Below, piece by piece: positions 50,066 to 63,967 of a DNA stretch of 64,000 bases; position 1 is the first letter of the stretch; each line of letters opens with the position of its first letter. Made by a program: the position numbers and the translations under genes. The notes under the pieces are model-generated. The model had not been told where the DNA came from and searched no databases. It worked only from the letters and a program-made list of their open reading frames with translations. Source of the stretch: an uncultured Anaerolineales bacterium (GTDB lineage Bacteria > Chloroflexota > Anaerolineae > UBA7937). The DNA lies in contig CAYLIE010000001.1 in the NCBI GenBank assembly GCA_964383935.1, forward strand, positions 11,073 through 75,072. The letters run 5' to 3'.

Positions 50066-51628
50066 CTAGTCGCATTTTATCTCGAATTTCTCCGCATTTT
50101 CTTTCAATATCCCGATTTCTCGGAAAAGCGGCATAAAAGCGAGCTTGGGTCTGAGGGCGACTAGCCTCTTTTGGACCGGATCGCAATAGACCGCCTCAAA
50201 GAGAGCAGAGAGAATCTCGCTCCTCTCTTTTTTGGTCGCACTTTGCCAGGCCATCCTCATTGTCTTCAATTGATCCGCCGTGATGTCAATCTTGGCTCTC
50301 GGGGGCGGATTCAAGTTAGCTAGGGCCGCTTCGACTTCCGCCTTGCCTCGCCGGAATTGCTCTTCGTCTATCAGAACTTCCAAATAGAGGCTCTTAAGCC
50401 TCTTCAGTTTCTCCTCTAGCCTCGCTCGTTCTTGCTCTACGTTCGTTGTCTGCTCCCTTGCATTGACCAATTCCTCTATGCGAGTTTGCCAGTCAGGGGG
50501 CAGTTCAAGTCTAGTGATAATCTGCCCGATTTGCTCCTCAAGTCCTGATTCGTGAACCCGCCATCGGGGAGCGGTACAAGGGATTTGCTTGAAGTATGAC
50601 ATACAACGGTAGAAACTGACCCCGCTGCGGCTAGTCTCGCCCGTCATAGCCTTACCGCAGCCCTCGCAGATAAGCATCCCCCGGAAGAGATAGGTGCGAA
50701 ACTTAGGAGTGAAAGTTCGTGCCCTCCTCCGGTTGCGAATGCGAATCTCCTGGCACCTGTCCCACGACTCTTGAGAGACAATGGCCTGTTGCTTGCCTGG
50801 GAACCTCTGGCCCTTGTGGGTTACGTAGCCGAGATAGATTGGGCTCGTGATGGCTTTCTTTACGGTATCTCCTATCCAGAGTCTTCTACCCCAGCGAGTA
50901 TTCATCTGATAGCCCAAACGAGTCAATTCACGCGCCACACTGTTGTAGGAATACTGCCCTGTGGCGTAGAGTTCAAAAAGCTTTATCACCCCTTCACTGT
51001 CCACAGGATGCACAATCGGAATCCGCCCATCTCCTTGATCTTCGTGGCCCAAGTTGGGGCAAAGATGGTCTCCGCAGTTCGAGCACAGGCCAAGGCAATA
51101 TCCGGTTGCTAGATTGCCGAGCCACAACCCTTCCCTGGCTCGTTGGCTGAGCCCCTTCTTGATCTCCTGGCCCAAGTTCTCCGAATACCATTGGGCTAGG
51201 GCTGCAAGAATGTGCATTTGCAGTCGGCCCTCGGGCCGGGTGTAGTCGAAACGCTCTTGGATCGACACAAAGCCGATACCGTGGTCCGCCAACTGCCCCA
51301 GGTAGGTGATCGTATCTCGGAGGCTGCGGCTGAAACGATCCAACTTGTGGATTACCAAGACATCAAAAAGGCCAGCCTCTGCGTCCTTCATCATCTGCTC
51401 GAACTGTGGACGCCGAGCTGACCTTCCTGAGAAGCCAGGGTCAAGGTATTCGGAGACTACTTGCCAGCCTTCGGACTCGCAATACTCCCGGCAGCGCCCT
51501 ATTTGGGCGTCAAGTGAATAGCCCTCGGTCTGCTCTTCAGTTGATACACGCGCGTAAAGAACAGCCCTCACGATTGCACCCCAGGCTATTCTACCCGGAA
51601 GGTTGCACCTTGTCAACCCCTTGGTCAA
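50066..51628 (-). CDS. large serine recombinase (resolvase/invertase N-domain + recombinase + zinc-ribbon)
   Basis: VLYARVSTEEQ (catalytic Ser), DRFSRS, LGYQMNTRWGRRLW recombinase domain and a CEGCGK zinc ribbon. TTG start at 51628 or GTG at 51571. Confidence 0.85.
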   Translation of the reverse strand: MTKGLTRCNLPGRIAWGAIVRAVLYARVSTEEQTEGYSLDAQIGRCREYCESEGWQVVSEYLDPGFSGRSARRPQFEQMMKDAEAGLFDVLVIHKLDRFSRSLRDTITYLGQLADHGIGFVSIQERFDYTRPEGRLQMHILAALAQWYSENLGQEIKKGLSQRAREGLWLGNLATGYCLGLCSNCGDHLCPNLGHEDQGDGRIPIVHPVDSEGVIKLFELYATGQYSYNSVARELTRLGYQMNTRWGRRLWIGDTVKKAITSPIYLGYVTHKGQRFPGKQQAIVSQESWDRCQEIRIRNRRRARTFTPKFRTYLFRGMLICEGCGKAMTGETSRSGVSFYRCMSYFKQIPCTAPRWRVHESGLEEQIGQIITRLELPPDWQTRIEELVNAREQTTNVEQERARLEEKLKRLKSLYLEVLIDEEQFRRGKAEVEAALANLNPPPRAKIDITADQLKTMRMAWQSATKKERSEILSALFEAVYCDPVQKRLVALRPKLAFMPLFREIGILKENAEKFEIKCD

Positions 51629-53689: not shown

Positions 53690-53850
53690 GAGGGAGACAC
53701 GAACAAGAGATTTACGGCGTAAATTTCTTTGGTCCTGCTGCCTACCGGCCAGAGAGAGAGTGACGAGTTTTACGCCGTAAATCTCTCGGGGGCTCCTATT
53801 CGCCGTTGAGGGAGACACTGTGATAGGTTTTACGCCGTGAATCTTACATG
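53690..53850. repeat. three tandem roughly 58-60-bp imperfect direct repeats, each carrying a 13-15-bp palindrome TTTACG(G/C)CGTAAA
   Basis: Unit 1 agggagacacgaacaagagATTTACGGCGTAAATttc (palindrome 53710-24). Unit 2 ...gagTTTTACGCCGTAAATctc (53769-81). Unit 3 agggagacactgtgataggTTTTACGCCGTGAATctt (53829-41). Confidence 0.6.
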
Positions 53851-53940
53851 GCGCTTCGGAGAGTCTGCAAAGAAGGATAGCCGCCTTGCAGAAGATACAT
53901 GCTGGTCGGCTTCGGTAGGGCTGACAGTTATAGTATCTAA

Positions 53941-54215: not shown

Positions 54216-54317
54216 CTACGGGCCGTCTTTCTTCCGCTTCTTCCCAAAACTCAGGGCTAGAGCCATAAGGATGATGGCAACCACCATGCCGAGCAACAGG
54301 CCGGGGATAGTTGGAAT
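54216..54317 (-). CDS. small hydrophobic peptide with basic C-terminal tail (paralogue C1; type I toxin-like)
   Basis: Frame gives (I)PTIPGLLLGMVVAIILMALALSFGKKRKKDGP*. Synonymous changes relative to C2 at 58127-58216. AAGGAGGTG RBS 9 nt upstream of an ATT codon. Canonical ATG (MVVAIIL...) 10 codons in. Confidence 0.45.
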   Translation of the reverse strand: MPTIPGLLLGMVVAIILMALALSFGKKRKKDGP

Positions 54318-54970
54318 AGATCACCACCTCCTTACTACTTTTCGACTTTAGCAAAAGCGTGTCCGGCGGTCAAGGGTCAGTCTCAGACGGTTCGTCATTG
54401 TGGGGCCTGAAGGCGGCGGTGCACCGCGCCCACCCCCACGGGCCGGAGCCGAAGTCCCCGCTGGAAACCCGCTCCCGAGACAGAGGGCTACTTAGTAGAT
54501 CAATCTTCTCTTATAGGAGGATGAGCGGCGGCTTTGGCAAGCCTAGCAGAGGTCGAAAACAGCTTGCCGACAGCCGACTCGGAGCGGGCGGACTTTCGGC
54601 TCTGATGAGAGGAGGCCTCTCGCAGGGGGCGAGAAGGCGTCCATATCCCCCACCGCCGTCAACTTTTCGATGTCAAAGAGAGCGGATTTCGAAGGATATA
54701 TCCCAAGAGGGATTTATCCCCCCCGGTTTTCGGGGCTCTCCGGGCTTCTAGGAGGCCGACCGTGCTCAGGAAAGCACCCCGAGCTTGCTTAGGGTTCACT
54801 TGCCCCTGCGCTTCGCTCACGGGGTGCTGAAAACAACCCTCCGGCCTTCGGCGGGCAACTCCCCCTTCCCAGGCGGAGATGACGGGCTGTTCTCTCCTTC
54901 GCGCGCTTCTACCATTTGACTCCAATTCTAACTATGCTACAATACATGCAAAGCTATGGAGGGAAGGCGA

Positions 54971-56770
54971 ATGCACATCACCCACTTCAGGGCTAAGCAC
55001 TTTCGCTGCCTCTATGATACGGACTGGATAGCAATCCACGATTTGACCGTTCTGATCGGTGAGAACGATGGAGGCAAGACGGCAACGATTGATGCCCTTG
55101 AGATTCTGCTCACCATTAAGCCCCCCGACACAGAAGATTTTTCTTTCGTGCCAGGGAGCCAGGAGCAGCACGAACAGGAAATGGTTTTGGAGGCAAAATT
55201 CACCCTTGAGTCGAACGACGTTTCTGCGTTGCAGGAGTTCTGCAGGTACAGTAGCGAGCAGCTAATCATTCGTCGGGATTTCTCCCCGGATTCTGCTGGG
55301 CCATGGACATATAGAACGATGGTTCACGCTGATGAAAGGCTGTCTGCAGATCTGGCCGCCTATACCGTAGCTACACTCCGTGAGATAGCGGAGGAACACG
55401 GGATAGACGTCCCCTTGAGTCCAAAGGCCGACATCGTCGATGCTATCGAGACATGGCTCGCCACTCAGCCGTTGTTTGAGGGATACCGAGAGTTGCCGCG
55501 TGCCGCTCGCGACCTGCTTCCCCAGGTTCAAGTGTTCAGGTCAGCACAGGCACTTGACCCGCAGAGAGAGGTAGACGCTGTTCTCCGAACTGTCTTCGTT
55601 GCCGAGATAGATGGTGAAACATATCGGGGTAAACTGGGTGACATATCCGCTCAAATTGAAGCTAGCCTCAACGAGCGTGTGTCCAGGTTAACACCCGTCG
55701 TTCAAAAATATCGTCCTGAGATCACGGAAGTACGCGTGGATCCTCGTTTCGACTATTCGCGCGGGCTAGCCACGTCGCGCCTCCAACTCATCGGACAGGA
55801 TGGCCACCCCATAAGCCTTGACAAACGCGGAGAAGGCATCAAGCGCCAAGTGACACTGGCTGTCTACGAGTGGAATTCGGAGCTTCTAGCCGCTCGTCCG
55901 GAGGAAGGTGCCCGCCCTCTCCTCCTGGCTTTCGACGAACCCGATAGTCATCTCGACTATTACTCTCAGCGCAAGATATTTGAGATTATACGGAGTCTCG
56001 TCAAACCGGGGATTCAGATAGTCGTCTGCACCCACTCGCTTAATCTCATAAACCGCGTCCCCCTAACCAACATAAATCATTACTGCTTGGACGATCACTA
56101 TTGCACGCGGGTGACCGCTTTGCAGAGCGATGATCCCGCCACGCTTGAGTATTTCGTCGACGACATAGGCAAGAATATGGGCTTGGAAAACAGCCTCATG
56201 TTTCACGAGCGTTGTTTTCTCGTTGTGGAGGGCCCAAGTGAAATGAACGCTTTACCCCCGCTCTTTCGCGTTTGGCACGAGGACGGGCTCAGTCTAACAT
56301 CTGCTGGTATCCGGTTGCTGAACGGTCAGAACAACGTTGGAGCGAGGAATTTCGCCAAGTTCCTTAACGACAATAATCGCAATGTCGTCTTCATGCTCGA
56401 TTCGGATTCTCGAACAGATCCCACAGGCCGCGTCTTCTCTGAGGAAAGCCTTCGTCGCGCAGGTTTTGATATCGATCGCCAGGTCTTCTTCGTCGGAGAT
56501 AGGGAGTTCGAGGATGCGTTCAGTGACACGCTTTGGGCCAGAGTCGGCAATACTAGATGGCCTCCAGAAGACGGGCGACCTTGGCAACCGGATGATTTTT
56601 CAGGCCGCAGGTCCCAAGACAAGAAATTCTCCGATGGCCTTTGCGCCGCATTCCGAGCGTCCAAGCCCAAAATAGCTTATGAACTTGCGAAGCGTGTAGC
56701 CGACCCCACTGAGATCCCCGCTCAAATCCAACGGTGTTTTAAGCACGCACTGGCGTTGGCGAATTCCTAG
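54971..56770 (+). CDS. OLD-family ATP-dependent endonuclease (N-terminal AAA_15/21 ATPase + C-terminal TOPRIM)
   Basis: RBS GGAGGGAAGG. MHITHFRAKHFRC...IHDLTVLIGENDGGKTATIDALEIL (Walker A), LLLAFDEPDSHLD (Walker B), TOPRIM CFLVVEGPSEMNALPPLF...VVFMLDSD. Confidence 0.75.
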   Translation: MHITHFRAKHFRCLYDTDWIAIHDLTVLIGENDGGKTATIDALEILLTIKPPDTEDFSFVPGSQEQHEQEMVLEAKFTLESNDVSALQEFCRYSSEQLIIRRDFSPDSAGPWTYRTMVHADERLSADLAAYTVATLREIAEEHGIDVPLSPKADIVDAIETWLATQPLFEGYRELPRAARDLLPQVQVFRSAQALDPQREVDAVLRTVFVAEIDGETYRGKLGDISAQIEASLNERVSRLTPVVQKYRPEITEVRVDPRFDYSRGLATSRLQLIGQDGHPISLDKRGEGIKRQVTLAVYEWNSELLAARPEEGARPLLLAFDEPDSHLDYYSQRKIFEIIRSLVKPGIQIVVCTHSLNLINRVPLTNINHYCLDDHYCTRVTALQSDDPATLEYFVDDIGKNMGLENSLMFHERCFLVVEGPSEMNALPPLFRVWHEDGLSLTSAGIRLLNGQNNVGARNFAKFLNDNNRNVVFMLDSDSRTDPTGRVFSEESLRRAGFDIDRQVFFVGDREFEDAFSDTLWARVGNTRWPPEDGRPWQPDDFSGRRSQDKKFSDGLCAAFRASKPKIAYELAKRVADPTEIPAQIQRCFKHALALANS

Positions 56771-56778
56771 GAGGGGCC

Positions 56779-57039
56779 ATGAACAGAAACGAAATCGTCG
56801 ACACCATAAGACGTGCCGGAAGAGAAAAAACAATTCTCTGGATACGAGCATACGAAGCCGATGGCTCAATCGAACCCAGAGAGGTTGAGCCCTATAGCTT
56901 TCGTCCATCAGGCACCACGGAGTGTTTCTTCTTTTACTGCCTGCTCCACAAGGGAACTCGTAACTTCCTGGTTGACAAGATCATTGAAGTGCGACTCACC
57001 GACAAGCGCTTTGAACTGCGCTGGCCCATAGAACTATAG
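56779..57039 (+). CDS. stand-alone WYL-domain protein coupled to the OLD nuclease gene
   Basis: ATG 8 nt after the OLD stop, with RBS overlapping the stop. EVEPYSFRPSGTTECFFFYCLLHKGTRNFLVDKIIEV matches the WYL ligand-sensing fold. Confidence 0.6.
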   Translation: MNRNEIVDTIRRAGREKTILWIRAYEADGSIEPREVEPYSFRPSGTTECFFFYCLLHKGTRNFLVDKIIEVRLTDKRFELRWPIEL

Positions 57040-57261
57040 ACGTTCATTCAGCTCGAATAGCCAGTCGGCCAAGAGACACGTTTCTTCGTCAAATGACACT
57101 TAGACGAACAAAAAGCCCGTGGGCCCGCGATCGCTTTCCGATCCTTTCAAACCTTCTCATCTTGCCAGAGCCAGTAAAACCAGGCCGGGTGAAGTGGACG
57201 GCTTCGCCTTTTAAGAATTGACCCTCTCGCTCTTTTCAAAGACTTTGCAGGAAATAAAAAC

Positions 57262-57286
57262 CGCACCCCGAAGGGTGCGTTCTGTT
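57262..57286. terminator. bidirectional rho-independent terminator between the OLD-WYL operon and the NYN gene
   Basis: AAATAAAAAC-CGCACCC-cgaa-GGGTGCG-TTCTGTT. The minus strand reads hairpin then GTTTTTATTT. Confidence 0.7.
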
Positions 57287-57345
57287 AAACCAATATATTT
57301 ATATCACAGCATGACATTTTTGTCAAGTTTTTCAAGTAGGATCAC

Positions 57346-57888
57346 TTATCTTCGTTGAACCGTTTGTTGTATATCCTCAAGGAATCGGTATTCTTGGCAG
57401 GCAAGCTTTAGCTCCCAAGAGAGGGTTTTGCGAGAAGAGAAAACCACCAGCGTTTTCCCCAAATCCCTCAGGCGCTTTCCAAGATCGGCAAAGTCACTGT
57501 CCCCCGAGAACAAAATGACGCAATCCAAATCCGCCCTCTCTAGAAGAATATCAGCGGTCATCTCCACATCGAAATTGGCCTTGTATACAAAGGTGTATCC
57601 ATACAACTTCCAATAGGGATGGTCCTTGTCAATGGCGATCTTTTTGAGAGGTTTAGTGATGGTGGTAAAGCCGATCTTATCCAAATACCGCAAATATTTG
57701 GGCATTTTGCGATCGCCCTTCTTTAGGCCGGTGTAGTAGCGAAACTCCAGCACGTCAAACTCTTGTTGAACAAGGGCTTTGACCTTCTCCCAGTCGATAC
57801 TCCAGCCCAGCTTGCGCTGGGTGTAGAACATGTTGGCGCCGTCAATATATACTTTTGCTCTGGGTTTTTCCCGAGAAAGATGGGCCAT
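57346..57888 (-). CDS. NYN-domain (LabA-like, PIN-fold) putative RNase
   Basis: KVYIDGANMFY...DCVILFSGDSDFADL NYN motifs. Leaderless arrangement, TGCTATAAT -10 ending 6 nt before ATG. Confidence 0.7.
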   Translation of the reverse strand: MAHLSREKPRAKVYIDGANMFYTQRKLGWSIDWEKVKALVQQEFDVLEFRYYTGLKKGDRKMPKYLRYLDKIGFTTITKPLKKIAIDKDHPYWKLYGYTFVYKANFDVEMTADILLERADLDCVILFSGDSDFADLGKRLRDLGKTLVVFSSRKTLSWELKLACQEYRFLEDIQQTVQRR

Positions 57889-58057
57889 GGGTCTATTATA
57901 GCACCCAGCCCCTTACTTCAACAAGTTGACTAGCGAGGAGCACCCCGGGGGTTCTAAGGCAGAAGTAGAAGCCCAAGCCAAAATTTCAAAATCAACCCAA
58001 CCGATCTGCCACTTGCCACCACGACGGCGCGCCTCTATAGAGACTTAACACCACGAT

Positions 58058-58082
58058 GGCATGCTTGTATATACAGCATGCC
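58058..58082. repeat. 25-bp near-perfect palindrome between small peptide C2 and the NYN promoter
   Basis: GGCATGCT-TGTATATACA-GCATGCC (one-base bulge). Confidence 0.45.
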
Positions 58083-58126
58083 ACAGACGGTCAAGCGCGC
58101 TCACGAAAGCCACCGGCCCCGCCCAT

Positions 58127-58216
58127 CTACTTTCGTTTCCTGCCGATAGACAGTGCCAGCCAGATCAGTATTGTGGAAAGCAGCATGCCCAGCAACAGTC
58201 CAGGGATAGTTGGAAT
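58127..58216 (-). CDS. small hydrophobic peptide with basic tail (paralogue C2)
   Basis: (I)PTIPGLLLGMLLSTILIWLALSIGRKRK*. GGAAGGAAG RBS 9 nt upstream of ATT. First 10 codons identical to C1 at protein level with synonymous nucleotide changes. Confidence 0.45.
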   Translation of the reverse strand: MPTIPGLLLGMLLSTILIWLALSIGRKRK

Positions 58217-58383
58217 GAATCATCACTTCCTTCCTCTCTCATCGTAGCATAGAGAAAACGGGCCGATCAATATGAAGAGGTGTTCGCAACTAGGGCAGGA
58301 AAGTCAGGGATGGGACCACCGGAGGAGACCACCTCGGCCCACTGCGAATTGATCATTGACAGGGGTATCCTCAATTTGCTACT

Positions 58384-59166
58384 GTGAGAATGGAGGGGAT
58401 GCCCGGAGCTATCCATTGGGCTTCTGGAGGGCGCACCAGCCATGCAATGTGCCACAACCAGCCGCCCGGGGAAGCCGAATCTGTTCTCATGAAGGAAAAG
58501 CAACCCGTTCACCACACATCTGACGAACACGCTGTGTCATCGGAGCAGAGGAAAGAATATCCCCTCGGCAGAAGCATCGTTAGACGGCTCAAGAAAACAC
58601 TCAACGAAGAGTGGGACTCTTGGCTGGTGGAGGAAGACGAGGATACCTTCAAGACCCTCTACCTGACAGAGCGACGGGTGTGCATCCCCGAACATCTGCT
58701 TAGCGGCGAGATCATGGAGGACATCATGAGTCTTTTCTACTACCCCCTCTCCACCGTCAGGGAGGAGCTCAAGGAGCGCACAGAGGCAAAGGAGTTCATC
58801 TCTATCTTTGTCCAACCCTCATACACGGACACCTCTTTTGCCGTGATGGTGGCCGGAGAAAAAGCTCTGTTGACCGTCTCTGACAAGGCGTGGAACTTCT
58901 ACTGGGATAGTGAAGAGGAGATGGTGAAGGAGCTGGAGAGTTGGTATCAGATTGCTGAAGCCAGGCTCAAGGGCGGACCCAGGCTCTTCGGCGGTGATGC
59001 CTGGGCACTTGAGACCCTGCTACGGCAGGTGAGGGAAGAGGACATTCCCAGGCTGCAAGAGGAAAGCCGCTGGCGGGCTGACGAACTCCGCAGAGCCCTT
59101 GATCTTCTCTCCCGCTTGCTTGAAGAGCCACGGGATAGAGAAGAATCGCTCCAGGACCTCAGCTAG
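58384..59166 (+). CDS. hypothetical protein (acidic, helical)
   Basis: 260-aa ORF in the island. Start uncertain (internal ATGs at 58443 and 58492). No family recognised. Confidence 0.4.
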   Translation: MRMEGMPGAIHWASGGRTSHAMCHNQPPGEAESVLMKEKQPVHHTSDEHAVSSEQRKEYPLGRSIVRRLKKTLNEEWDSWLVEEDEDTFKTLYLTERRVCIPEHLLSGEIMEDIMSLFYYPLSTVREELKERTEAKEFISIFVQPSYTDTSFAVMVAGEKALLTVSDKAWNFYWDSEEEMVKELESWYQIAEARLKGGPRLFGGDAWALETLLRQVREEDIPRLQEESRWRADELRRALDLLSRLLEEPRDREESLQDLS

Positions 59167-59261
59167 GGGAGAGCAGGGAACAGAGGAGACCCCAGGCTCC
59201 CAGGAACTTGTTCCTTTGCAGGGCGAGAAAGGCCGCGAGCTACTTATACTATTATATATAT

Positions 59262-59822
59262 ATGAAGGAACGTGAACCCGATTTCGAAAACGAGAAGATA
59301 CGGGCCTGGCTGATAGGGCCTTCCTTAGAGGGTCCCGCGGAAAAGGAGCAAGATCTTGAAGGTCTCGAGAAAGACCCAACTGTCATAACCATTGATGAGG
59401 AGACCGAAGAGATATTCGAGAGTCGCGCCTATCACTTCAGGCCTGGCCCGGAGACCTTCTCTTTTCTCCTTGGCTCGCTAGCCAAGACGATGGGTGAGAA
59501 TCTTGCTGAGATCCCTCCGGAGGAGCTTGTGGATCATGTGATGGACATGATCGAAGGCACTGGTATCAAGTTCCTGGCCAAGCGGCGCAAGGAGGATGGT
59601 CGAATCACCTTTATTTTGGTGGGGATCAGTTGCCATTCACGGTCGCTCCTCGATCGCCAGGAATTGGTCAAGGAGGCCGGTTATCGCAAGGCGGTCCAGG
59701 AGTTTGAAGAGCTCCCCCTTTCAAGGGCGATCCTTTCGCCACCGGCAGTGGTCACCCTTGAGGAGTGGCGCCGCTATGCTGAGGAAGGTCCCCTCTCAAG
59801 AAGCGAACGCGAGGGAGAATAG
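59262..59822 (+). CDS. hypothetical protein
   Basis: MKEREPDFENEKIRAWLIG.... 186 aa from ATG 59262; track ORF starts at 59208. No family recognised. Confidence 0.4.
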   Translation: MKEREPDFENEKIRAWLIGPSLEGPAEKEQDLEGLEKDPTVITIDEETEEIFESRAYHFRPGPETFSFLLGSLAKTMGENLAEIPPEELVDHVMDMIEGTGIKFLAKRRKEDGRITFILVGISCHSRSLLDRQELVKEAGYRKAVQEFEELPLSRAILSPPAVVTLEEWRRYAEEGPLSRSEREGE

Positions 59823-59874
59823 AAAGAGCCAGACTTGAGCTGGGAAGGAAGAAGCCTCCAGGCCACGTTGATGC

Positions 59875-59982
59875 CTACCTGGGCTTTCTCTTCCGTCCCT
59901 TCTCAACCATGACCGGAAGAGCCAGTAACCATATGAAGACCGTGATTCCTACAAGAAGCCATTCTAGAGGCGTCAAGGCCAT
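59875..59982 (-). CDS. small hydrophobic peptide with basic tail (paralogue C3, canonical ATG)
   Basis: AAGGAGGTG RBS, 9 nt, then ATG. MALTPLEWLLVGITVFIWLLALPVMVEKGRKRKPR*. Same RBS spacing and architecture as C1 and C2. Confidence 0.55.
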   Translation of the reverse strand: MALTPLEWLLVGITVFIWLLALPVMVEKGRKRKPR

Positions 59983-60501
59983 ATGTTCAATCACCTCCTT
60001 CGGAGAAAGAGACAACTCATCAAGTATCCAGATATAAACAGGGTCAGTCCTATGAGTGTCACTCGAAAGGAAAACCCTCGCTCGGAAAGAATCTGTCCGA
60101 AGACGAGGGCTCCAATCGCTATATTTGCCAGATCGACTAACTTGTCCGCAGAAAGCCTTCGATGATCCTCGTTGAAGCGGATAACCATGCACTCTGATGT
60201 TAGCACATTGAGCGAGATGCTGTCAATACCACAATACGGAGTATCCTAGGCGAAGCATAGACAGCCGACCTGCACATAGCGATCTGGTCTACATTTCCCC
60301 CCTTTACCGCCTTTTCCTTATTTTGTTTTCCCTCGCGCCCGCGCGAAAGAGGGGATTGAGAGAGCTGGGGGAGGGTAGACGATATGCCTATGTGCAATCC
60401 GATTCCACTGACATCCGCTAATGAGAAATGCTCAAGGTGTCCCTGAGTAATAGTCTGATCAGGATGGAGCTTATGCGCCTTTGTATGACTCTTGGTAATA
60501 G

Positions 60502-60595: not shown

Positions 60596-61321
60596 ATGCA
60601 GGTACCAGAGTGGCTGGGGCATCTGCAAGAGGCTGAAACCGCGTACGTGCTGTTTTCGGGCGGCAAAGACAGTTCGGCGGCCCTGGTGTACACCAAGGAG
60701 CTGAGTGACGAGTTTTGCGAATCTCCTCGATTAGTAGCGGTCCATGTGGATACGACGGCGGGACTTCCTGCTGTTGAAGAGTTCTCAAAGCAGTTCTGTA
60801 GTCATGTTGGCGTGCCTCTTACGGTTTTGAGGCCTGAAGAGGACTATTTTAGTCTAGTGAAGCGTTGGGGCGTGCCGCGCCCTAGGGCGAGGTGGTGTTG
60901 CTTCCATCTGAAAATAGAGCCGATCAAGTTGTTCCTTGATGGGCAGAAGAATTACGTGGTCTTGGACGGGATGCGAAGGCAGGAATCACGGAAGCGCTCC
61001 CAGTATCCGCCCACCTACGATCATCCCCATTTTGGGCTGGTAATTCACCCAATTATAGATTGGACAAAGGACAGAGTTGAAGATTTCATTGCCTCAAGGG
61101 ACTTGCCTATCAATCCAGCGTACGAAATGGGATTCAGTTCCTGGGAGTGCTGGTGTGGTGTGTTCAAGCGAAAGTGTGAATTTGAGAAACTGCGGGATGT
61201 GGATAGGGACTTCTTCATGAAACTGGTGGAACTGGAGGATTCCCTTACAAGTGGGTATGCTTACGCCTATTTTGATGGCAAACCCTTCTACCTAAAGGGT
61301 CTACTACAGGAGAAAGATTGA
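60596..61321 (+). CDS. PP-loop ATP pyrophosphatase of the PAPS-reductase/DndC-SspD-like family with Cys cluster
   Basis: PP-loop 'VLFSGGKDSSAAL'. Cys-rich segments RARWCCFH and WECWCGVFKRKCEF suggest an Fe-S site. 241 aa. Confidence 0.65.
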   Translation: MQVPEWLGHLQEAETAYVLFSGGKDSSAALVYTKELSDEFCESPRLVAVHVDTTAGLPAVEEFSKQFCSHVGVPLTVLRPEEDYFSLVKRWGVPRPRARWCCFHLKIEPIKLFLDGQKNYVVLDGMRRQESRKRSQYPPTYDHPHFGLVIHPIIDWTKDRVEDFIASRDLPINPAYEMGFSSWECWCGVFKRKCEFEKLRDVDRDFFMKLVELEDSLTSGYAYAYFDGKPFYLKGLLQEKD

Positions 61322-61322
61322 T

Positions 61323-61859
61323 TTGCAAGTGGAAGTTGTGGCAAACCAGCATCATCGTGGAGTGATAGAACGCTTATTGGAAGGAAGGCCGTTCCGCGTG
61401 CGGCTGTACGCACTACACGTTCATGATGTCCAACTGATCAGCTCTTCGCTAGGATTGCGCTTAATCAGGCTATTGGGGTCAGATTGTACAGTAACGGTAG
61501 CTTTTGGAGACAGGCTTTGGGACACGGAGACGGGCAGCCCCAGGAACGAGTTATGTAGGCAAGTCCTCGACTTCTTGAAGGAGATCGAGGATTATGGGGC
61601 AAACGTGTGGCACGTACCAGATCCCTTGCTACACGCAAAAGTCCTATATGTTGAGGAAGAAATGCCGGGTGCCGGGCGAACGAGTCGTGCGTTGGTGAGT
61701 AGCGCGAACTTCACGGAGACGGGTATTGGCGGTAGCAACTTTGAACTGGGGATCGGTTTCGAAGACTTAGAGGCGTGCCCAATCCTGGCACAGAGCATAA
61801 AGAAGTTCACCGATGGAGTACTCGGTGCAGCCAGACCTATACCTTGGGAAGGAGTTTAG
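61323..61859 (+). CDS. phospholipase D (HKD)-like nuclease-family protein
   Basis: Single HKD-like motif HAKVLYVEEE...GRTSRALVSSANFTETG. Start 2 nt after the previous stop. 178 aa. Confidence 0.55.
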   Translation: MQVEVVANQHHRGVIERLLEGRPFRVRLYALHVHDVQLISSSLGLRLIRLLGSDCTVTVAFGDRLWDTETGSPRNELCRQVLDFLKEIEDYGANVWHVPDPLLHAKVLYVEEEMPGAGRTSRALVSSANFTETGIGGSNFELGIGFEDLEACPILAQSIKKFTDGVLGAARPIPWEGV

Positions 61860-62978
61860 ATGATGTGGTTCGAGAGGTACAACTTCAAAGAAGATCCCTA
61901 CGTGGTGCGCGATCCATTCGAGACTTCACTAGAGTTCATCCAATGGGATAGGGAGGACCTCGTACACAAGAAGAATCTTGACTTTTTCATAAGGGATGTC
62001 GTAGGTGGCTATCGCGTTGGATTGAAGGTGTATGGCGCCAGTGGCAGTGGGAAAACCTGGTTGCTGAGATATCTCCAGAAAGAATTGGTGCGGCAGCTTG
62101 GTGACGAGGTAGTTGTTCTCTATGGAAAGATTCCGCGGTTTGATCCCACGTTCTGGGTCTTCTATGACATGGTAGTGAAGGGTTGGCTCGACCATCGAAG
62201 TAGAATCCTAGAGACCATCGCAAGGACAGCCGGTGACGTGGAATCCGCATGGCAGGAGCACATAGGAGACGCTGACTTGGCAAGCTGTCTATGGAGGCTA
62301 AAGTACAAGGCTGACGAAAAGGTAACAATCAGCCTTTGTGAGCATTGGTTAAGGGGCACAAAGATTCCGGTTCGTGACCTGAGCCAAGTCGGTGCAACGG
62401 CTTCACTGGATCGCGACTACTCGAGGTATTCCGTCCTTGTCCAATTATTGGACCTAGCCTTGCAGGCTTTCGGCACATGCGTCCTCATGGTTGATGAGCT
62501 TGAGAATGCTCCTGGGTCACTCGCTCGGGCGCTCGGCGATGCCCTCAGAGACCTCTTGGATAGCTTCTCCGAGCGATTCGCATTGGCATGCAGCTACACA
62601 GCTCAAGCGGCGGACGAGTTGCTCGATAGGGGATACGGAGAGTTCTTGTTCAGGCGCTTGGAGTGGCACGTAAAGCTTGATCCAATCACGCCTGACAACG
62701 CTCCTGGCGTTTTTAGGGTCCATCATGGCACGTACCGAAAGCCTGGACATGAGGGCGATCAATTGGCTCCCTTCACGGAGCAAGCACTACGCAGGTTGTT
62801 GAGGGAAATGGAGCCAGAAAAGTGGTATCCGGGGTTCATATTCCCTAATTGTGGAGTCTTAGGGCGTCTAGCGAGTGAAGCAAGTGCTGATACGATAGAC
62901 GAGACTTTTGTGGAGACGACGGCGTTTCAGAAGCGGGAAGTCTTTCCATACCTGGGGCCAGAGTCCAGACTTATATAG
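61860..62978 (+). CDS. P-loop NTPase (AAA/ORC-like) of unknown family
   Basis: ATG immediately after the PLD stop with an AAGGAG RBS. Walker A 'VYGASGSGKTWLLRYL' and Walker B 'CVLMVDELEN'. 372 aa. Confidence 0.55.
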   Translation: MMWFERYNFKEDPYVVRDPFETSLEFIQWDREDLVHKKNLDFFIRDVVGGYRVGLKVYGASGSGKTWLLRYLQKELVRQLGDEVVVLYGKIPRFDPTFWVFYDMVVKGWLDHRSRILETIARTAGDVESAWQEHIGDADLASCLWRLKYKADEKVTISLCEHWLRGTKIPVRDLSQVGATASLDRDYSRYSVLVQLLDLALQAFGTCVLMVDELENAPGSLARALGDALRDLLDSFSERFALACSYTAQAADELLDRGYGEFLFRRLEWHVKLDPITPDNAPGVFRVHHGTYRKPGHEGDQLAPFTEQALRRLLREMEPEKWYPGFIFPNCGVLGRLASEASADTIDETFVETTAFQKREVFPYLGPESRLI

Positions 62979-63967
62979 GAGAGCTTGCCGTCCCGACCAG
63001 CTATGGCTGACTGCACTATGCCTTCATTCGCCAATCGCCTAATTAGCCGCCGCAAAGTCTTCTCTTCGAGTACGCAGTACCGTTCTATCAGTAGGCTCAT
63101 ACAGACATATACACTGATGGAACGTACGTCAGACAAGCGCAGCTGTGGTCTCTCAAAGAGGGCGTAGGCCTTACGGAACAGCTCGAGAAAACGCGCGCGG
63201 CTAGGCTTGTGCTCATATCGAAAGTCAGGGAGACATCCAGGCGCGTCACCTACGTAGGCAGATGCTGCCCAATAGATCTTCTCCTGCAGTTCAGCGCCCT
63301 CCTTGGAGAAGAGACCGAGCAGCTTCTGTGCCATGCTTGTTAACTGAAGCCGTTGAGGATTCACGAGGCCCAGTTGCTGCAACCAAAATCGGAAACAATC
63401 AAAGTTGTTCCGCACTTTCCTTGGTGGGGAGTCTGGCTGCCTAGAGAAGTGCAAGGACAAATACGCCTTGTCCTCCCAGGTGCTACAGGTGCTATTGGAC
63501 AAGACCCTTTGGCCGTAAGACGTGATGACTCGTTCTATGGGTCCGCCTGCATTCTGAGAGATGGCTCCTAGAGCAGAACTGAACTGCAACGGGAGGTACA
63601 GGGCAAGAGCGCGAAAATAGAATACCTTTTCTGCAAGTTCAAGGGTTTTGTTTGACTTTGCAGGCACCAGAGCGCAAAGCGCTTTTCCCTCGCTGGAAAG
63701 CACATAGCCGCCATTCTCGCGCGTCACTAGTCCGAGTGATTCCATGGCGCGCAAATGCCTCTTGATCACCTTGACATTCGTCAGACCCAGCTCTTTCTGA
63801 ATCAAGGGCACAAGCATATCAGTTTCCATAAGTCCTTCGGGGCGCATGATGTGGCAAATTCCCGTGAAGCGGTGCAATTGCCCCTCTGACGTGGTCAGGT
63901 CTGCCAGGAATCCAGTGCGCGAGACTTCCATGCGATTGGTATTCGCTTCCTTATCTACTATGTCCAT
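62927..63967 (-). CDS. hypothetical protein with winged-helix (MarR/HxlR-like) DNA-binding region
   Basis: LIQKELGLTNVKVIKRHLRAMESLGLVTRENGGYVLSSEGKAL. 346 aa. Convergent with the NTPase gene, ends overlapping by about 50 nt. Confidence 0.4.
   Translation of the reverse strand: MDIVDKEANTNRMEVSRTGFLADLTTSEGQLHRFTGICHIMRPEGLMETDMLVPLIQKELGLTNVKVIKRHLRAMESLGLVTRENGGYVLSSEGKALCALVPAKSNKTLELAEKVFYFRALALYLPLQFSSALGAISQNAGGPIERVITSYGQRVLSNSTCSTWEDKAYLSLHFSRQPDSPPRKVRNNFDCFRFWLQQLGLVNPQRLQLTSMAQKLLGLFSKEGAELQEKIYWAASAYVGDAPGCLPDFRYEHKPSRARFLELFRKAYALFERPQLRLSDVRSISVYVCMSLLIERYCVLEEKTLRRLIRRLANEGIVQSAIAGRDGKLSYISLDSGPRYGKTSRF

What the first reader, a model, noticed from the sequence alone, without database searches (positions are those of the whole stretch)
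54216..59982. Family of three small hydrophobic peptides with KRK-rich tails (type I toxin-like), two possibly starting at ATT
Three minus-strand ORFs share the same architecture: short N-terminus, one TM helix, basic tail. They are (I)PTIPGLLLGMVVAIILMALALSFGKKRKKDGP (54216-54317), (I)PTIPGLLLGMLLSTILIWLALSIGRKRK (58127-58216) and MALTPLEWLLVGITVFIWLLALPVMVEKGRKRKPR (59875-59982). The first two differ mostly by synonymous changes in the first 10 codons (ccc ggc ctg vs cct gga ctg), which argues for purifying selection on the peptide. All have a strong GGAGG-type RBS exactly 9 nt upstream of the putative start, but in C1 and C2 that codon is ATT rather than ATG/GTG/TTG. They bracket the OLD/WYL/NYN cassette. 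They could be type I toxins, holin-like effectors or membrane anchors of the defence modules.
Basis: seen in the sequence. Interest (0 to 1): 0.6.

Follow-up and report, generated by a model that had tools for sequence, protein, structure and literature searches.

The report
Tiny membrane-peptide genes starting at ATT
Three unannotated genes for 29-35-residue single-pass membrane peptides are real and evolutionarily conserved. Two of them start at the rare codon ATT. They belong to the conserved backbone of a mobile genomic island in uncultured Chloroflexi, but their function is still unknown.

Summary
The three minus-strand mini-ORFs exist as described and are genuine coding genes. Across 7 C1/C2-type and 3 C3-type sequences, substitutions cluster at third codon positions in the peptide frame only.

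ATT is the real start of C1 and C2:
- It is invariant in 9 non-identical homologues.
- It lies 8-9 nt after the GGAGG core of a 9-11-nt extended Shine-Dalgarno sequence.
- An in-frame TGA sits 1-2 codons upstream.
- A distant homologue has GTG at exactly this position.

C3 (ATG start) is translationally coupled to an overlooked 65-aa two-helix membrane ORF. Its homology to C1/C2 is not established.

The conserved partners are not OLD/WYL/NYN. They are two orphan proteins, A (58489-59166) and B (59262-59822), which C2 and C3 flank. In other loci an HExxH protein (C) lies downstream of the peptide.

All relatives come from Anaerolineae-like metagenomic islands carrying integrases and variable defence cargo. 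Gene callers miss these peptides.

The peptides look like type I toxins, but no conserved antisense RNA, structured leader or known toxin family was found. My best guess, at low confidence, is a low-dose membrane-active peptide throttled by the AUU start. A small membrane adaptor is nearly as likely.

The parts
54216..54317 (-). C1: 33-codon sORF, ATT start, single TM helix plus a GKKRKKDGP tail
   Evidence: Orthologues in L002 and L007 also start at ATT.
54319..54333 (-). Extended Shine-Dalgarno of C1 (AAGGAGGTGGTGATC). The GGAGG core lies 9 nt before ATT. It contains the in-frame TGA.
54345..54373 (-). Sigma-70-like promoter of C1 (TTGACC-17-TAAAGT). It predicts a 5' UTR of about 20 nt.
   Evidence: Identical in L002.
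54400..54915 (-). Conserved non-coding element of about 480-500 nt directly 5' of C1-type peptides. Its nature is unresolved (candidate ncRNA or cis element).
   Evidence: 80-89% identical copies in L001, L002, L003/4 and L007. No codon periodicity. No Rfam hit. Weak structural support.
58127..58216 (-). C2: 29-codon sORF, ATT start, TM helix plus a GRKRK tail
   Evidence: Orthologues in L001, L005 and L006; hybrid form in L003/4.
58217..58234 (-). SD region of C2 (GGAAGGAAGTGATGATTC). The orthologues have AAGGAGGTGATGATTC.
58241..58270 (-). Promoter-like TTGATC-18-TACGAT upstream of C2. The same layout occurs in the distant homologue L014.
   Evidence: Read from the sequence. Not reported by the consensus scan.
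58067..58094 (-). Promoter-like block (TTGACC-N15-TATATAC) 33-60 nt after the C2 stop. It is conserved with the peptide even where the downstream gene differs (NYN or GIY-YIG).
59875..59982 (-). C3: 35-codon sORF, ATG start, TM helix plus a EKGRKRKPR tail
   Evidence: Orthologues in L007 and L009, and P0009.
59990..60000 (-). Extended SD of C3 (AAGGAGGTGAT). It overlaps the stop codon of the upstream 65-aa ORF, which implies translational coupling.
59991..60188 (-). 65-aa ORF with two predicted TM helices (MVIRFNEDHRRL...LFLRRR), the partner of C3. It was not in the finding.
   Evidence: Seven homologous proteins at 78-89% identity.
60197..60226 (-). Promoter-like TTGACA-18-TAACAT for the 65-aa/C3 operon. 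The mRNA would be nearly leaderless.
58489..59166 (+). Orphan protein A (225 aa from the conserved MKEKQP start; the ORF is open from 58384). Divergent from C2.
   Evidence: No family, PDB or defence hit.
59262..59822 (+). Orphan protein B (186 aa from the conserved MKEREP start). Convergent with C3. A distant paralogue of A.
   Evidence: No hits.

Best explanation
SHOWN.
- C1, C2 and C3 are genuine protein-coding sORFs. Each encodes a 29-35-residue peptide with one hydrophobic helix.
- C1/C2-type genes start at AUU, placed 8-9 nt after the GGAGG core of a 9-11-nt extended Shine-Dalgarno sequence.
- Each has its own promoter-like site.
- They are conserved backbone genes of a family of genomic islands in uncultured Anaerolineae-like Chloroflexota. 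The backbone order is C(HExxH) <- peptide <-|-> A B ->|<- C3 65aa. Variable defence cargo (here NYN, WYL fragment, OLD) is inserted between backbone parts.

INFERRED.
- The positive-inside rule puts the G(R/K)K tail in the cytoplasm and the short Pro-rich N-terminus (MPTIPG) outside.
- The invariant small residues (G10, A21, G25) suggest helix-helix packing, either as an oligomer or with a partner helix.
- The conserved weak start codon keeps synthesis low. Published values are about 1-10% of AUG. It also makes synthesis sensitive to initiation fidelity (IF3).

MOST LIKELY MECHANISM (low confidence). A dose-limited, membrane-inserted, toxin- or holin-like peptide serves island maintenance or defence. 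The AUU start, rather than a demonstrated antisense RNA, acts as the brake. C3 together with the 65-aa two-helix protein forms a second small membrane pair of similar kind.
For: Coding and start codon:
- Third-position bias and the synonymous excess occur only in the peptide frame.
- Codons 2-10 vary at 4 synonymous and 2 nonsynonymous sites. Translation therefore begins at or before codon 2.
- An in-frame TGA lies 1-2 codons upstream, with no ATG/GTG/TTG in between.
- ATT is present in 9 of 9 C1/C2-type sequences, including the distant L010. GTG is at the identical position in L014/L016.
- Extended SDs accompany conserved AUU/AUA starts in S. aureus and give about 10% of AUG output (PMC13009471). 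AUU gives 1-2% of AUG in E. coli (bioRxiv 10.1101/063800).

Linkage:
- A and B are found next to the peptides in window, L006, L007, L009, L014 and L016. A B-like gene (47% identity) is next to a peptide in L010-13.
- C lies downstream of the peptide in L002, L007, L014 and L016.

Toxin-like features:
- Size under 60 aa, a TM helix and a charged C-terminus.
- Several copies within one mobile island.
- Missed by annotation. There were no protein-database hits for C1/C2, and the genes are uncalled in the ENA and NCBI records.
- These are the published search criteria for type I toxins (PMC2887945, PMC5961336).

Island context: a serine recombinase lies at the island edge, with housekeeping genes to its left.
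Against: - No transcription, translation or toxicity data exist; the organism is uncultured.
- No antisense promoter or sRNA is conserved across the family.
- The predicted 5' UTRs are short, and the mRNA folds are no more stable than shuffled sequences (z = +0.1 to +0.8). This is unlike classical type I toxin mRNAs.
- The N-terminal motif and conserved synteny with protein genes fit a specific partner interaction at least as well as generic membrane damage.
- The basic tail is not conserved in distant homologues (RKPEDRHK, RKEGEHGH).
- B-like genes can occur without a peptide (L017/18).
- A and B can be deleted (L008).
- Partners A, B and C have no predicted function; the AlphaFold models were poor.
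Confidence: 0.4

Rival explanations
1. Non-toxic small membrane adaptor or regulator. The peptide is a low-abundance subunit that recruits or modulates a partner, in the manner of MgrB, AcrZ or MgtS. The partner could be the HExxH protein C, proteins A/B, or the 65-aa membrane protein. Such a complex could couple an envelope signal to island regulation.
For: - Synteny with A/B persists down to 47% identity of B and across three lineages.
- C lies directly downstream in four loci.
- Specific positions are invariant (P5, L7, L8, L17, A21, L22, G25, K27), rather than mere hydrophobicity.
- The only other conserved AUU-start small protein read about here, S. aureus cvfC1, is a putative regulator (PMC13009471).
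Against: - A, B and C have no predicted TM segment or known domain.
- C is absent from this window, yet C1 is intact.
- C2 sits in front of unrelated genes (NYN, GIY-YIG).
- There is no interaction evidence.
Confidence: 0.3
2. Classical type I toxin-antitoxin loci. An undetected cis-antisense or divergently encoded sRNA represses each peptide mRNA.
For: - The peptide features match published type I criteria (PMC2887945, PMC5961336).
- Two tandem promoter-like units on the opposite strand (58011-58071) point into the 3' end of C2.
- C3 converges on gene B with only 52 nt between the stops and no predicted terminator. Overlapping antisense transcripts are therefore plausible.
Against: - The antisense promoter-like units exist only in the closely related NYN-type loci. 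They are absent from L003/L005 and from C1-type loci, where conservation ends about 25 nt after the stop.
- There is no complementarity between the upstream 480-nt element and the C1 mRNA.
- No Pfam, NCBIfam or PHROG toxin family matches.
- The leaders are short and unstructured.
Confidence: 0.15
3. Leader peptide (uORF) or promoter-cassette element. Translation of the sORF mainly controls expression of the gene downstream (NYN, GIY-YIG or C). Alternatively, the conserved sORFs serve chiefly as homology patches for shuffling cargo.
For: - A same-strand gene always follows within 150-240 nt.
- A promoter-like block travels with C2-type peptides in front of different nuclease genes.
- L003/4 is a C1/C2 hybrid.
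- L008 is a clean deletion with one end inside C3.
Against: - Amino-acid-level purifying selection acts along the whole TM helix.
- NYN has its own extended -10 promoter and a leaderless start.
- No attenuator or terminator structure was found.
Confidence: 0.08
4. Remnants of C-terminal sorting signals (LPXTG- or PEP-CTERM-like) from decayed surface-protein genes.
For: C1 scores 18.2 bits against TIGR01167 LPXTG_anchor (cut-off 15.9) and 15.3 bits against Pfam Gram_pos_anchor.
Against: - Only the TM-plus-tail part of the model aligns (positions 14-33). No LPXTG motif is present.
- C2 and C3 do not hit these models.
- Every copy has its own promoter and SD, and a stop 1-2 codons upstream.
- A profile search of 1.84 billion proteins found no large protein ending in this sequence.
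Confidence: 0.02

Closest known systems
Type I toxins (Fst/Ldr superfamily; C. difficile CD2517.1-type; TxpA/BsrG/YonT of Bacillus prophages)
   Same: - Under 60 aa, one TM helix, and a charged or lysine/arginine-rich C-terminus.
- Several copies at one locus.
- Located in prophages, islands or next to defence genes.
- Usually unannotated (PMC2887945, PMC5961336).
   Different: - No sequence match to any known toxin family.
- No conserved antisense RNA.
- A short unstructured leader.
- A conserved AUU start.
- Conserved synteny with protein-coding partners (A, B, C).
- Toxicity is untested.
AUU/AUA-initiated genes with strong or extended SD (E. coli infC and pcnB; S. aureus cvfC1, ccpN, infC)
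   Same: - The non-canonical start is conserved across homologues.
- It is positioned by an extended SD.
- The expected output is a few percent of AUG and is IF3-sensitive (bioRxiv 10.1101/063800; PMC13009471).
   Different: - Those products are cytosolic enzymes or regulators. These are membrane peptides of a mobile island in Chloroflexota.
- Initiation at this ATT is inferred from comparative evidence only.
Small membrane regulatory proteins (MgrB, AcrZ, MgtS, KdpF, CydX). Recalled from general knowledge, not tested.
   Same: - A 29-50-aa single-pass peptide.
- Conserved juxtamembrane residues.
- Encoded next to functional partners.
   Different: - No large membrane partner is encoded nearby.
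- No sequence similarity.
Sortase LPXTG C-terminal sorting signal (TIGR01167 / PF00746)
   Same: A hydrophobic helix followed by a K/R-rich tail. C1 passes the TIGR01167 cut-off on that part alone.
   Different: - Stand-alone genes.
- No LPXTG motif.
- No attached surface protein.
Class II holins / pinholins (comparison for the 65-aa ORF plus C3). From general knowledge.
   Same: - A 65-aa protein with two TM helices and a charged C-terminus, in a mobile element.
- A small second membrane gene is translationally coupled to it.
   Different: - No adjacent endolysin.
- No PHROG hit.
- The island is not recognisably viral.

Membership tests
Type I toxin-antitoxin system | Small (<60-70 aa) hydrophobic protein with a TM segment and a polar or charged C-terminus | tested here: met
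   Criteria as stated in PMC2887945 and PMC5961336.
Type I toxin-antitoxin system | Antisense or partially complementary sRNA antitoxin encoded at the locus | tested here: inconclusive
   Opposite-strand promoter-like repeats occur only in NYN-type C2 loci. None is conserved in C1-type or L003/L005. C3 may be overlapped by convergent A-B transcription. No RNA data are available.
Type I toxin-antitoxin system | Sequence membership in a described toxin family (Fst, Ldr, Hok, TisB, Ibs, TxpA/BsrG and others) | tested here: not met
   There are no such hits in Pfam, NCBIfam or PHROGs, even at E up to 10.
Type I toxin-antitoxin system | Growth arrest or membrane damage on overexpression, relieved by the sRNA | not testable with these tools
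   Requires an experiment.
Genes initiated at AUU (infC/pcnB/cvfC1 type) | AUU at proper spacing from a strong or extended SD, with no usable canonical start in frame | tested here: met
   - GGAGG plus 8-9 nt, then ATT.
- An in-frame TGA 1-2 codons upstream.
- The nearest in-frame canonical codon (TTG, codon 8) lies 30 nt from the SD.
Genes initiated at AUU (infC/pcnB/cvfC1 type) | Start codon conserved among homologues, or replaced by a canonical start at the same position | tested here: met
   ATT in 9 of 9 C1/C2-type sequences. GTG at the same position in L014/L015/L016.
Genes initiated at AUU (infC/pcnB/cvfC1 type) | Direct evidence of initiation (toeprint, TIS profiling, N-terminal peptide) | not testable with these tools
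   Uncultured source; no data.
LPXTG / sortase sorting signal | LPXTG-type motif immediately before the helix, at the C-terminus of a secreted protein | tested here: not met
   Only model positions 14-33 align. The ORF begins 1-2 codons after a stop. No large protein carries this tail.
Holin (for 65-aa ORF + C3) | Small TM protein encoded next to an endolysin in a lysis cassette | tested here: not met
   The neighbours are orphan genes A/B and PAPS-reductase/PLD/AAA genes. There is no lysin domain and no PHROG hit.
One homologous family comprising C1, C2 and C3 | Statistically supported sequence homology between C3-type and C1/C2-type | tested here: inconclusive
   - hhalign probability 26%, P = 7e-4 over 24 columns.
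- 67 of 2000 architecture-preserving shuffles reach the best observed score.

The most novel reading that the evidence does not exclude
The AUU start is the sensor. The peptides are membrane toxins whose translation is normally suppressed by IF3-dependent rejection of AUU. Anything that loosens initiation fidelity or lowers IF3 would then release a burst of toxin. Candidate triggers are phage takeover of translation, stress, or loss of the island. This would be a translation-fidelity-gated abortive-infection or addiction switch, built into the backbone of a defence island and needing no antitoxin gene.

A second unexcluded novelty is that the conserved 480-nt non-coding element upstream of C1-type genes is a new large RNA working with the peptide. 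It would resemble OLE RNA with its membrane partner.
Probability: 0.1. Interest if true: 0.8.

Novelty: new member of a known kind. Interest (0 to 1): 0.45.

Why it matters
- It adds a clean comparative case of a conserved AUU start codon outside infC and pcnB. The start is paired with an extended Shine-Dalgarno sequence, in a phylum where translation signals are little studied.
- Standard gene callers systematically miss a conserved gene family. The genes are absent from a 5.8-billion-protein database unless the start happens to be canonical.
- It redraws the local map. The conserved unit is an orphan backbone (peptide, A, B, C, 65-aa/C3) that frames interchangeable defence cargo. This gives landmarks for finding such islands in Chloroflexota.
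- If the peptides prove to be toxins gated by start-codon choice, that would be a new way of controlling a toxin.

Tried and rejected
- **Alternative frame from the GTG/ATG 7 nt upstream (VMIHSNYPW..., 41 aa in C2, 137 aa in C1).** Rejected. That frame shows no synonymous excess (22:236), and the codon lies only 2 nt after the SD core.
- **Opposite-strand ORFs.** Rejected by the same test.
- **Rfam.** No family at gathering threshold in the whole window. Nothing credible at E<=10 around C1. No tRNA or tmRNA.
- **Protein-database search with C1+C2 concatenated.** Nothing found. The minimum query length blocked direct searches.
- **Exact-protein look-up of OLD.** Not on record.
- **Plasmid megablast of the region.** No match.
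- **Viral contigs.** No peptide, element or B homologue.
- **Pfam, NCBIfam, PADLOC, PHROGs and PDB sequence searches for A, B, C and the 65-aa ORF.** Nothing, apart from a spurious beta-trefoil repeat match for C.
- **AlphaFold2 of A and B.** pLDDT 40 and 49, too poor for fold searches, so none were run.
- **SD-sequestering hairpins in the mRNAs.** They appear in the MFE folds, but the energies do not differ from shuffles.
- **Complementarity between the 480-nt element and the C1 mRNA.** None found.
- **Secondary structure of the 480-nt element.** Only 4 compensatory pairs out of 129, z = -2.3. Left unresolved.

Full report
**1. Checking the observation**

A six-frame scan of the whole 64-kb window looked for an ORF ending in a 15-26-residue hydrophobic stretch followed by a K/R cluster. 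It returned four hits only: C1, C2, C3 and a 65-aa ORF immediately upstream of C3. The pattern is therefore local and not background.

An alignment of the three loci shows that the C1-C2 DNA similarity starts at the Shine-Dalgarno sequence and ends at the stop codon. The flanks are unrelated.

There are minor corrections. C2 in this window has GGAAG rather than GGAGG. C3 has an 11-nt spacer, not 9. All three ribosome-binding sites are extended (AAGGAGGTGAT-like, 9-11 nt complementary to the 16S 3' tail).

**2. Are they coding, and in which frame?**

Scans of public genomes and metagenomes with the peptide motif recovered six loci:
- L001, from an uncultured Anaerolineales MAG, is 96% identical over C2 plus NYN.
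- L002 carries a C1 orthologue.
- L003 and L004 carry a hybrid peptide.
- L005 and L006 are C2-like.

Over 7 non-identical sequences, variable sites fall 9/7/17 by codon position in the peptide frame. Synonymous:nonsynonymous codon differences are 128:122. The two other sense frames give 22:236 and 25:230, and the antisense frames are also worse.

C3 orthologues lie uncalled behind homologues of the 65-aa ORF in L007 and L009. They give 4/6/14 and 26:18, against 6:34 and 9:32. Both peptide types are therefore under purifying selection as proteins.

**3. The ATT start**

- In every C1/C2-type sequence an in-frame TGA lies one or two codons upstream, with no ATG, GTG or TTG in between.
- The first canonical codon is TTG at codon 8, 30 nt from the SD.
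- Codons 2-10 vary at four synonymous and two nonsynonymous sites, so they are translated.
- ATT is invariant in 9 non-identical sequences, while the codons on either side vary.

A profile search of 1.84 billion representative proteins found three true relatives.
- P0011 (MPQLLLGMVLAMILLALALSLGRKEGEHGH) has the same promoter and SD layout in its DNA, with GTG exactly where C1 and C2 have ATT: GGAGGTGATGACCT GTG.
- P0010 was called from an upstream SD-less ATG. Its DNA reads GGAGGTGATTGCC ATT ACG, so ATT again sits 8 nt after GGAGG.
- P0009 is a C3 homologue.

The out-of-frame GTG/ATG at -7 lies only 2 nt from the SD core, and its frame shows no selection. ATT initiation is therefore strongly supported by comparative evidence, though not demonstrated experimentally.

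Published work gives the expected consequence. AUU yields 1-2% of AUG in E. coli, where only infC and pcnB are confirmed to use it (bioRxiv 10.1101/063800). In S. aureus, conserved AUU/AUA starts (cvfC1, ccpN, infC) all rely on extended SDs and give about 10% of AUG (PMC13009471).

**4. Transcription signals**

- C1 has TTGACC-17-TAAAGT.
- C2 has TTGATC-18-TACGAT, read by eye. The same layout occurs in L014.
- The 65-aa/C3 operon has TTGACA-18-TAACAT just before its ATG.
- The C3 SD overlaps the stop codon of the 65-aa ORF, which implies translational coupling.
- The predicted leaders are short, and the mRNA folds are no more stable than shuffled controls.

**5. What the peptides are really linked to**

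The window left of 49.8 kb is housekeeping. From the serine recombinase gene (50066-51628) onward it is an island. The island contains:
- transposase remnants
- an OLD/GajA-like nuclease
- a WYL fragment
- an NYN gene
- an SspD/BrxP-like PAPS reductase, a PLD-like protein and an AAA protein

Comparison of loci shows that OLD and NYN are variable cargo. The conserved neighbours are two orphan genes: A (58489-59166) and B (59262-59822). C2 is divergent from A, and C3 converges on B.

| Loci | Arrangement |
|---|---|
| L007, L009 | A and B recur with 65aa/C3 |
| L014/L016 (A and B 62-67% identical) | A and B recur with a divergent peptide |
| L010-13 | A B-like gene at 47% identity sits divergent from the ATT-start peptide |
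| L002, L007, L014, L016 | A third conserved gene, C, lies directly downstream of the peptide |

Gene C is about 280-300 aa and carries a conserved LIAHECGHLL (HExxH) motif. It is missing from this window. Here C1 is followed by a non-conserved 67-aa ORF, three TTTACGGCGTAAA-containing repeats and a transposase remnant.

The backbone is therefore C <- peptide <-|-> A B ->|<- C3 65aa.

The association is not absolute. A B-like gene sits among MazE/PIN modules without any peptide in L017/18. L008 is a clean deletion joining window-equivalents 59930 and 58397, which removes A, B and half of C3.

A, B, C and the 65-aa protein have no Pfam, NCBIfam, PADLOC, PHROG or PDB relatives. AlphaFold models of A and B were too poor to use.

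The surrounding loci carry integrases, excisionase-like HTH genes, PIN, a DnaD-like gene, DUF3987 with a terminase, or BREX and E1/E2 genes. None of the peptide, the element or B is found in the viral contig collection.

**6. Is C3 the same family?**

The shared features are LL(V/L)G(I/M), IWL(L)AL(P/S) and G(R/K)KRK. Profile-profile comparison gives only 26% probability (P = 7e-4). Shuffles of C3 that preserve its N-terminus, TM segment and tail reach the best observed score in 67 of 2000 trials. I treat C3 as a second family of the same architecture, possibly distantly related.

**7. Function**

The peptides fit the published descriptors of type I toxins (PMC2887945, PMC5961336):
- size under 60 aa
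- a TM helix
- a charged C-terminus
- several copies at one locus
- a mobile or defence context
- absence from annotation

The defining antitoxin RNA is not evident.
- Opposite-strand promoter-like repeats (58011-58071) exist only in the closely related NYN-type loci.
- C1-type conservation stops about 25 nt after the stop codon.
- The upstream 480-nt element has no complementarity to the C1 mRNA.
- No known toxin family matches.

The only family hit is C1 against the TM-plus-tail half of LPXTG_anchor. That hit reflects shared architecture. The genes are stand-alone, and no large protein in 1.84 billion ends with this sequence.

Several points fit a specific small-membrane-protein role about as well as a toxin role:
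- invariant positions (P5, L7, L8, L17, A21, L22, G25, K27)
- the non-conserved basic tail in distant homologues
- conserved synteny with protein genes

I therefore commit, at 0.4, to the following model. These are low-dose, N-out/C-in membrane peptides of the island backbone, toxin- or holin-like in action, with the AUU start as the expression brake. The adaptor model stands at 0.3 and a classical type I TA at 0.15.

**8. Side observations on recombination**

L003/4 combines a C1-type upstream region and N-terminus with a C2-type C-terminus and downstream block. A promoter-like block after C2 travels with the peptide in front of either NYN or a GIY-YIG fragment. Together with L008, this suggests that the short conserved genes also act as recombination joints between cargo modules.

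**9. Novelty and score**

This is a new sequence family of a known kind, namely small hydrophobic membrane peptides. Its unusual feature is a conserved AUU start, and that feature is well supported. Its genomic associations have been redrawn here. Its function is unknown. Interest is 0.45.

Noticed in passing
window 54400-54915 (minus-strand orientation); L001 2510-3007; L002 3362-3889; L003 5458-5929; L007 8891-9326 and partial inverted copy at 1921-2122: A non-coding element of about 480-500 nt, 80-89% conserved, with a nearly invariant 3' half.
- It lies directly upstream of C1-type peptides. In L001 it precedes a 94-aa TM protein instead.
- It shows no codon periodicity (p=0.42) and has no Rfam hit.
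- Covariation is weak (4 of 129 pairs) and the MFE z-score is -2.3.
- A promoter-like TTTGCA-16-TAGAAT lies at 54952-54925.
- It could be a new large ncRNA or a cis-acting island sequence.
   Followed up: partly
window 58489-59166 (+) and 59262-59822 (+): Orphan acidic proteins A and B are weakly paralogous; both begin MKE(K/R)xP. They are conserved at 45-90% identity in Chloroflexi MAGs and metagenomes. They have no family, defence, phage or PDB match, and the AF2 models were poor. They are the true conserved neighbours of the peptides.
   Followed up: partly
L002 4233-5072; L007 9648-10487; L014 5250-6119; L016 5655-6557 (absent from window): Conserved protein C, about 280-300 aa, carries an invariant LIAHECGHLL (HExxH, ImmA/IrrE-like motif). 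It lies directly downstream of the peptide gene. It has no Pfam hit. In the window it has been lost.
   Followed up: partly
window 59991-60188 (-): An unreported 65-aa ORF with two predicted TM helices and an RRR tail. It has a near-leaderless promoter, and its stop codon lies inside the SD of C3. Seven homologues are called in public data, while C3 itself is never called.
   Followed up: yes
window about 53720-53860 (-): Three direct repeats spaced about 55 nt apart. Two contain the perfect palindrome TTTACGGCGTAAA and one a near-copy. They lie between C1 and a transposase remnant, and look like iterons or operator sites.
   Followed up: no
window 58011-58071 (+): A tandem 29-nt repeat (ACTTGCCACCACGACGGCGCGCCTCTATA / ACTTAACACCACGATGGCATGCTTGTATA) lies between C2 and NYN. 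Each unit reads as a -35/-10 pair pointing antisense into C2. On the other strand it reads as repeated CGTGGTGGCAAG operator-like sites. It is conserved only in the closely related NYN-type loci.
   Followed up: partly
window 57888-57903 (-): The NYN gene has an extended -10 promoter (TGCTATAAT) only about 7 nt before its ATG. It is probably a leaderless mRNA.
   Followed up: no
L008 5259/5260 (window equivalents 59930 | 58397): A clean deletion variant removes B, A and the 3' half of C3. It fuses the 5' half of C3 to the region upstream of C2. The C3 start is also mutated to ATA there.
   Followed up: yes
L003/L004 5458-6152: A hybrid peptide gene combines a C1-type upstream element and N-terminal half with a C2-type C-terminal half and downstream promoter block. 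It is followed by a GIY-YIG fragment and an excisionase-like HTH gene.
   Followed up: partly
window 60596-62978 (+) and 62927-63967 (-): An SspD/BrxP-like PAPS reductase, a PLD-like (DrmC-like) protein and an AAA ATPase form a probable further defence cassette. A wHTH/Csa3-like regulator lies opposite them. The island begins at the serine recombinase (50066-51628), and DDE transposase remnants lie at about 52.7-53.0 kb.
   Followed up: no
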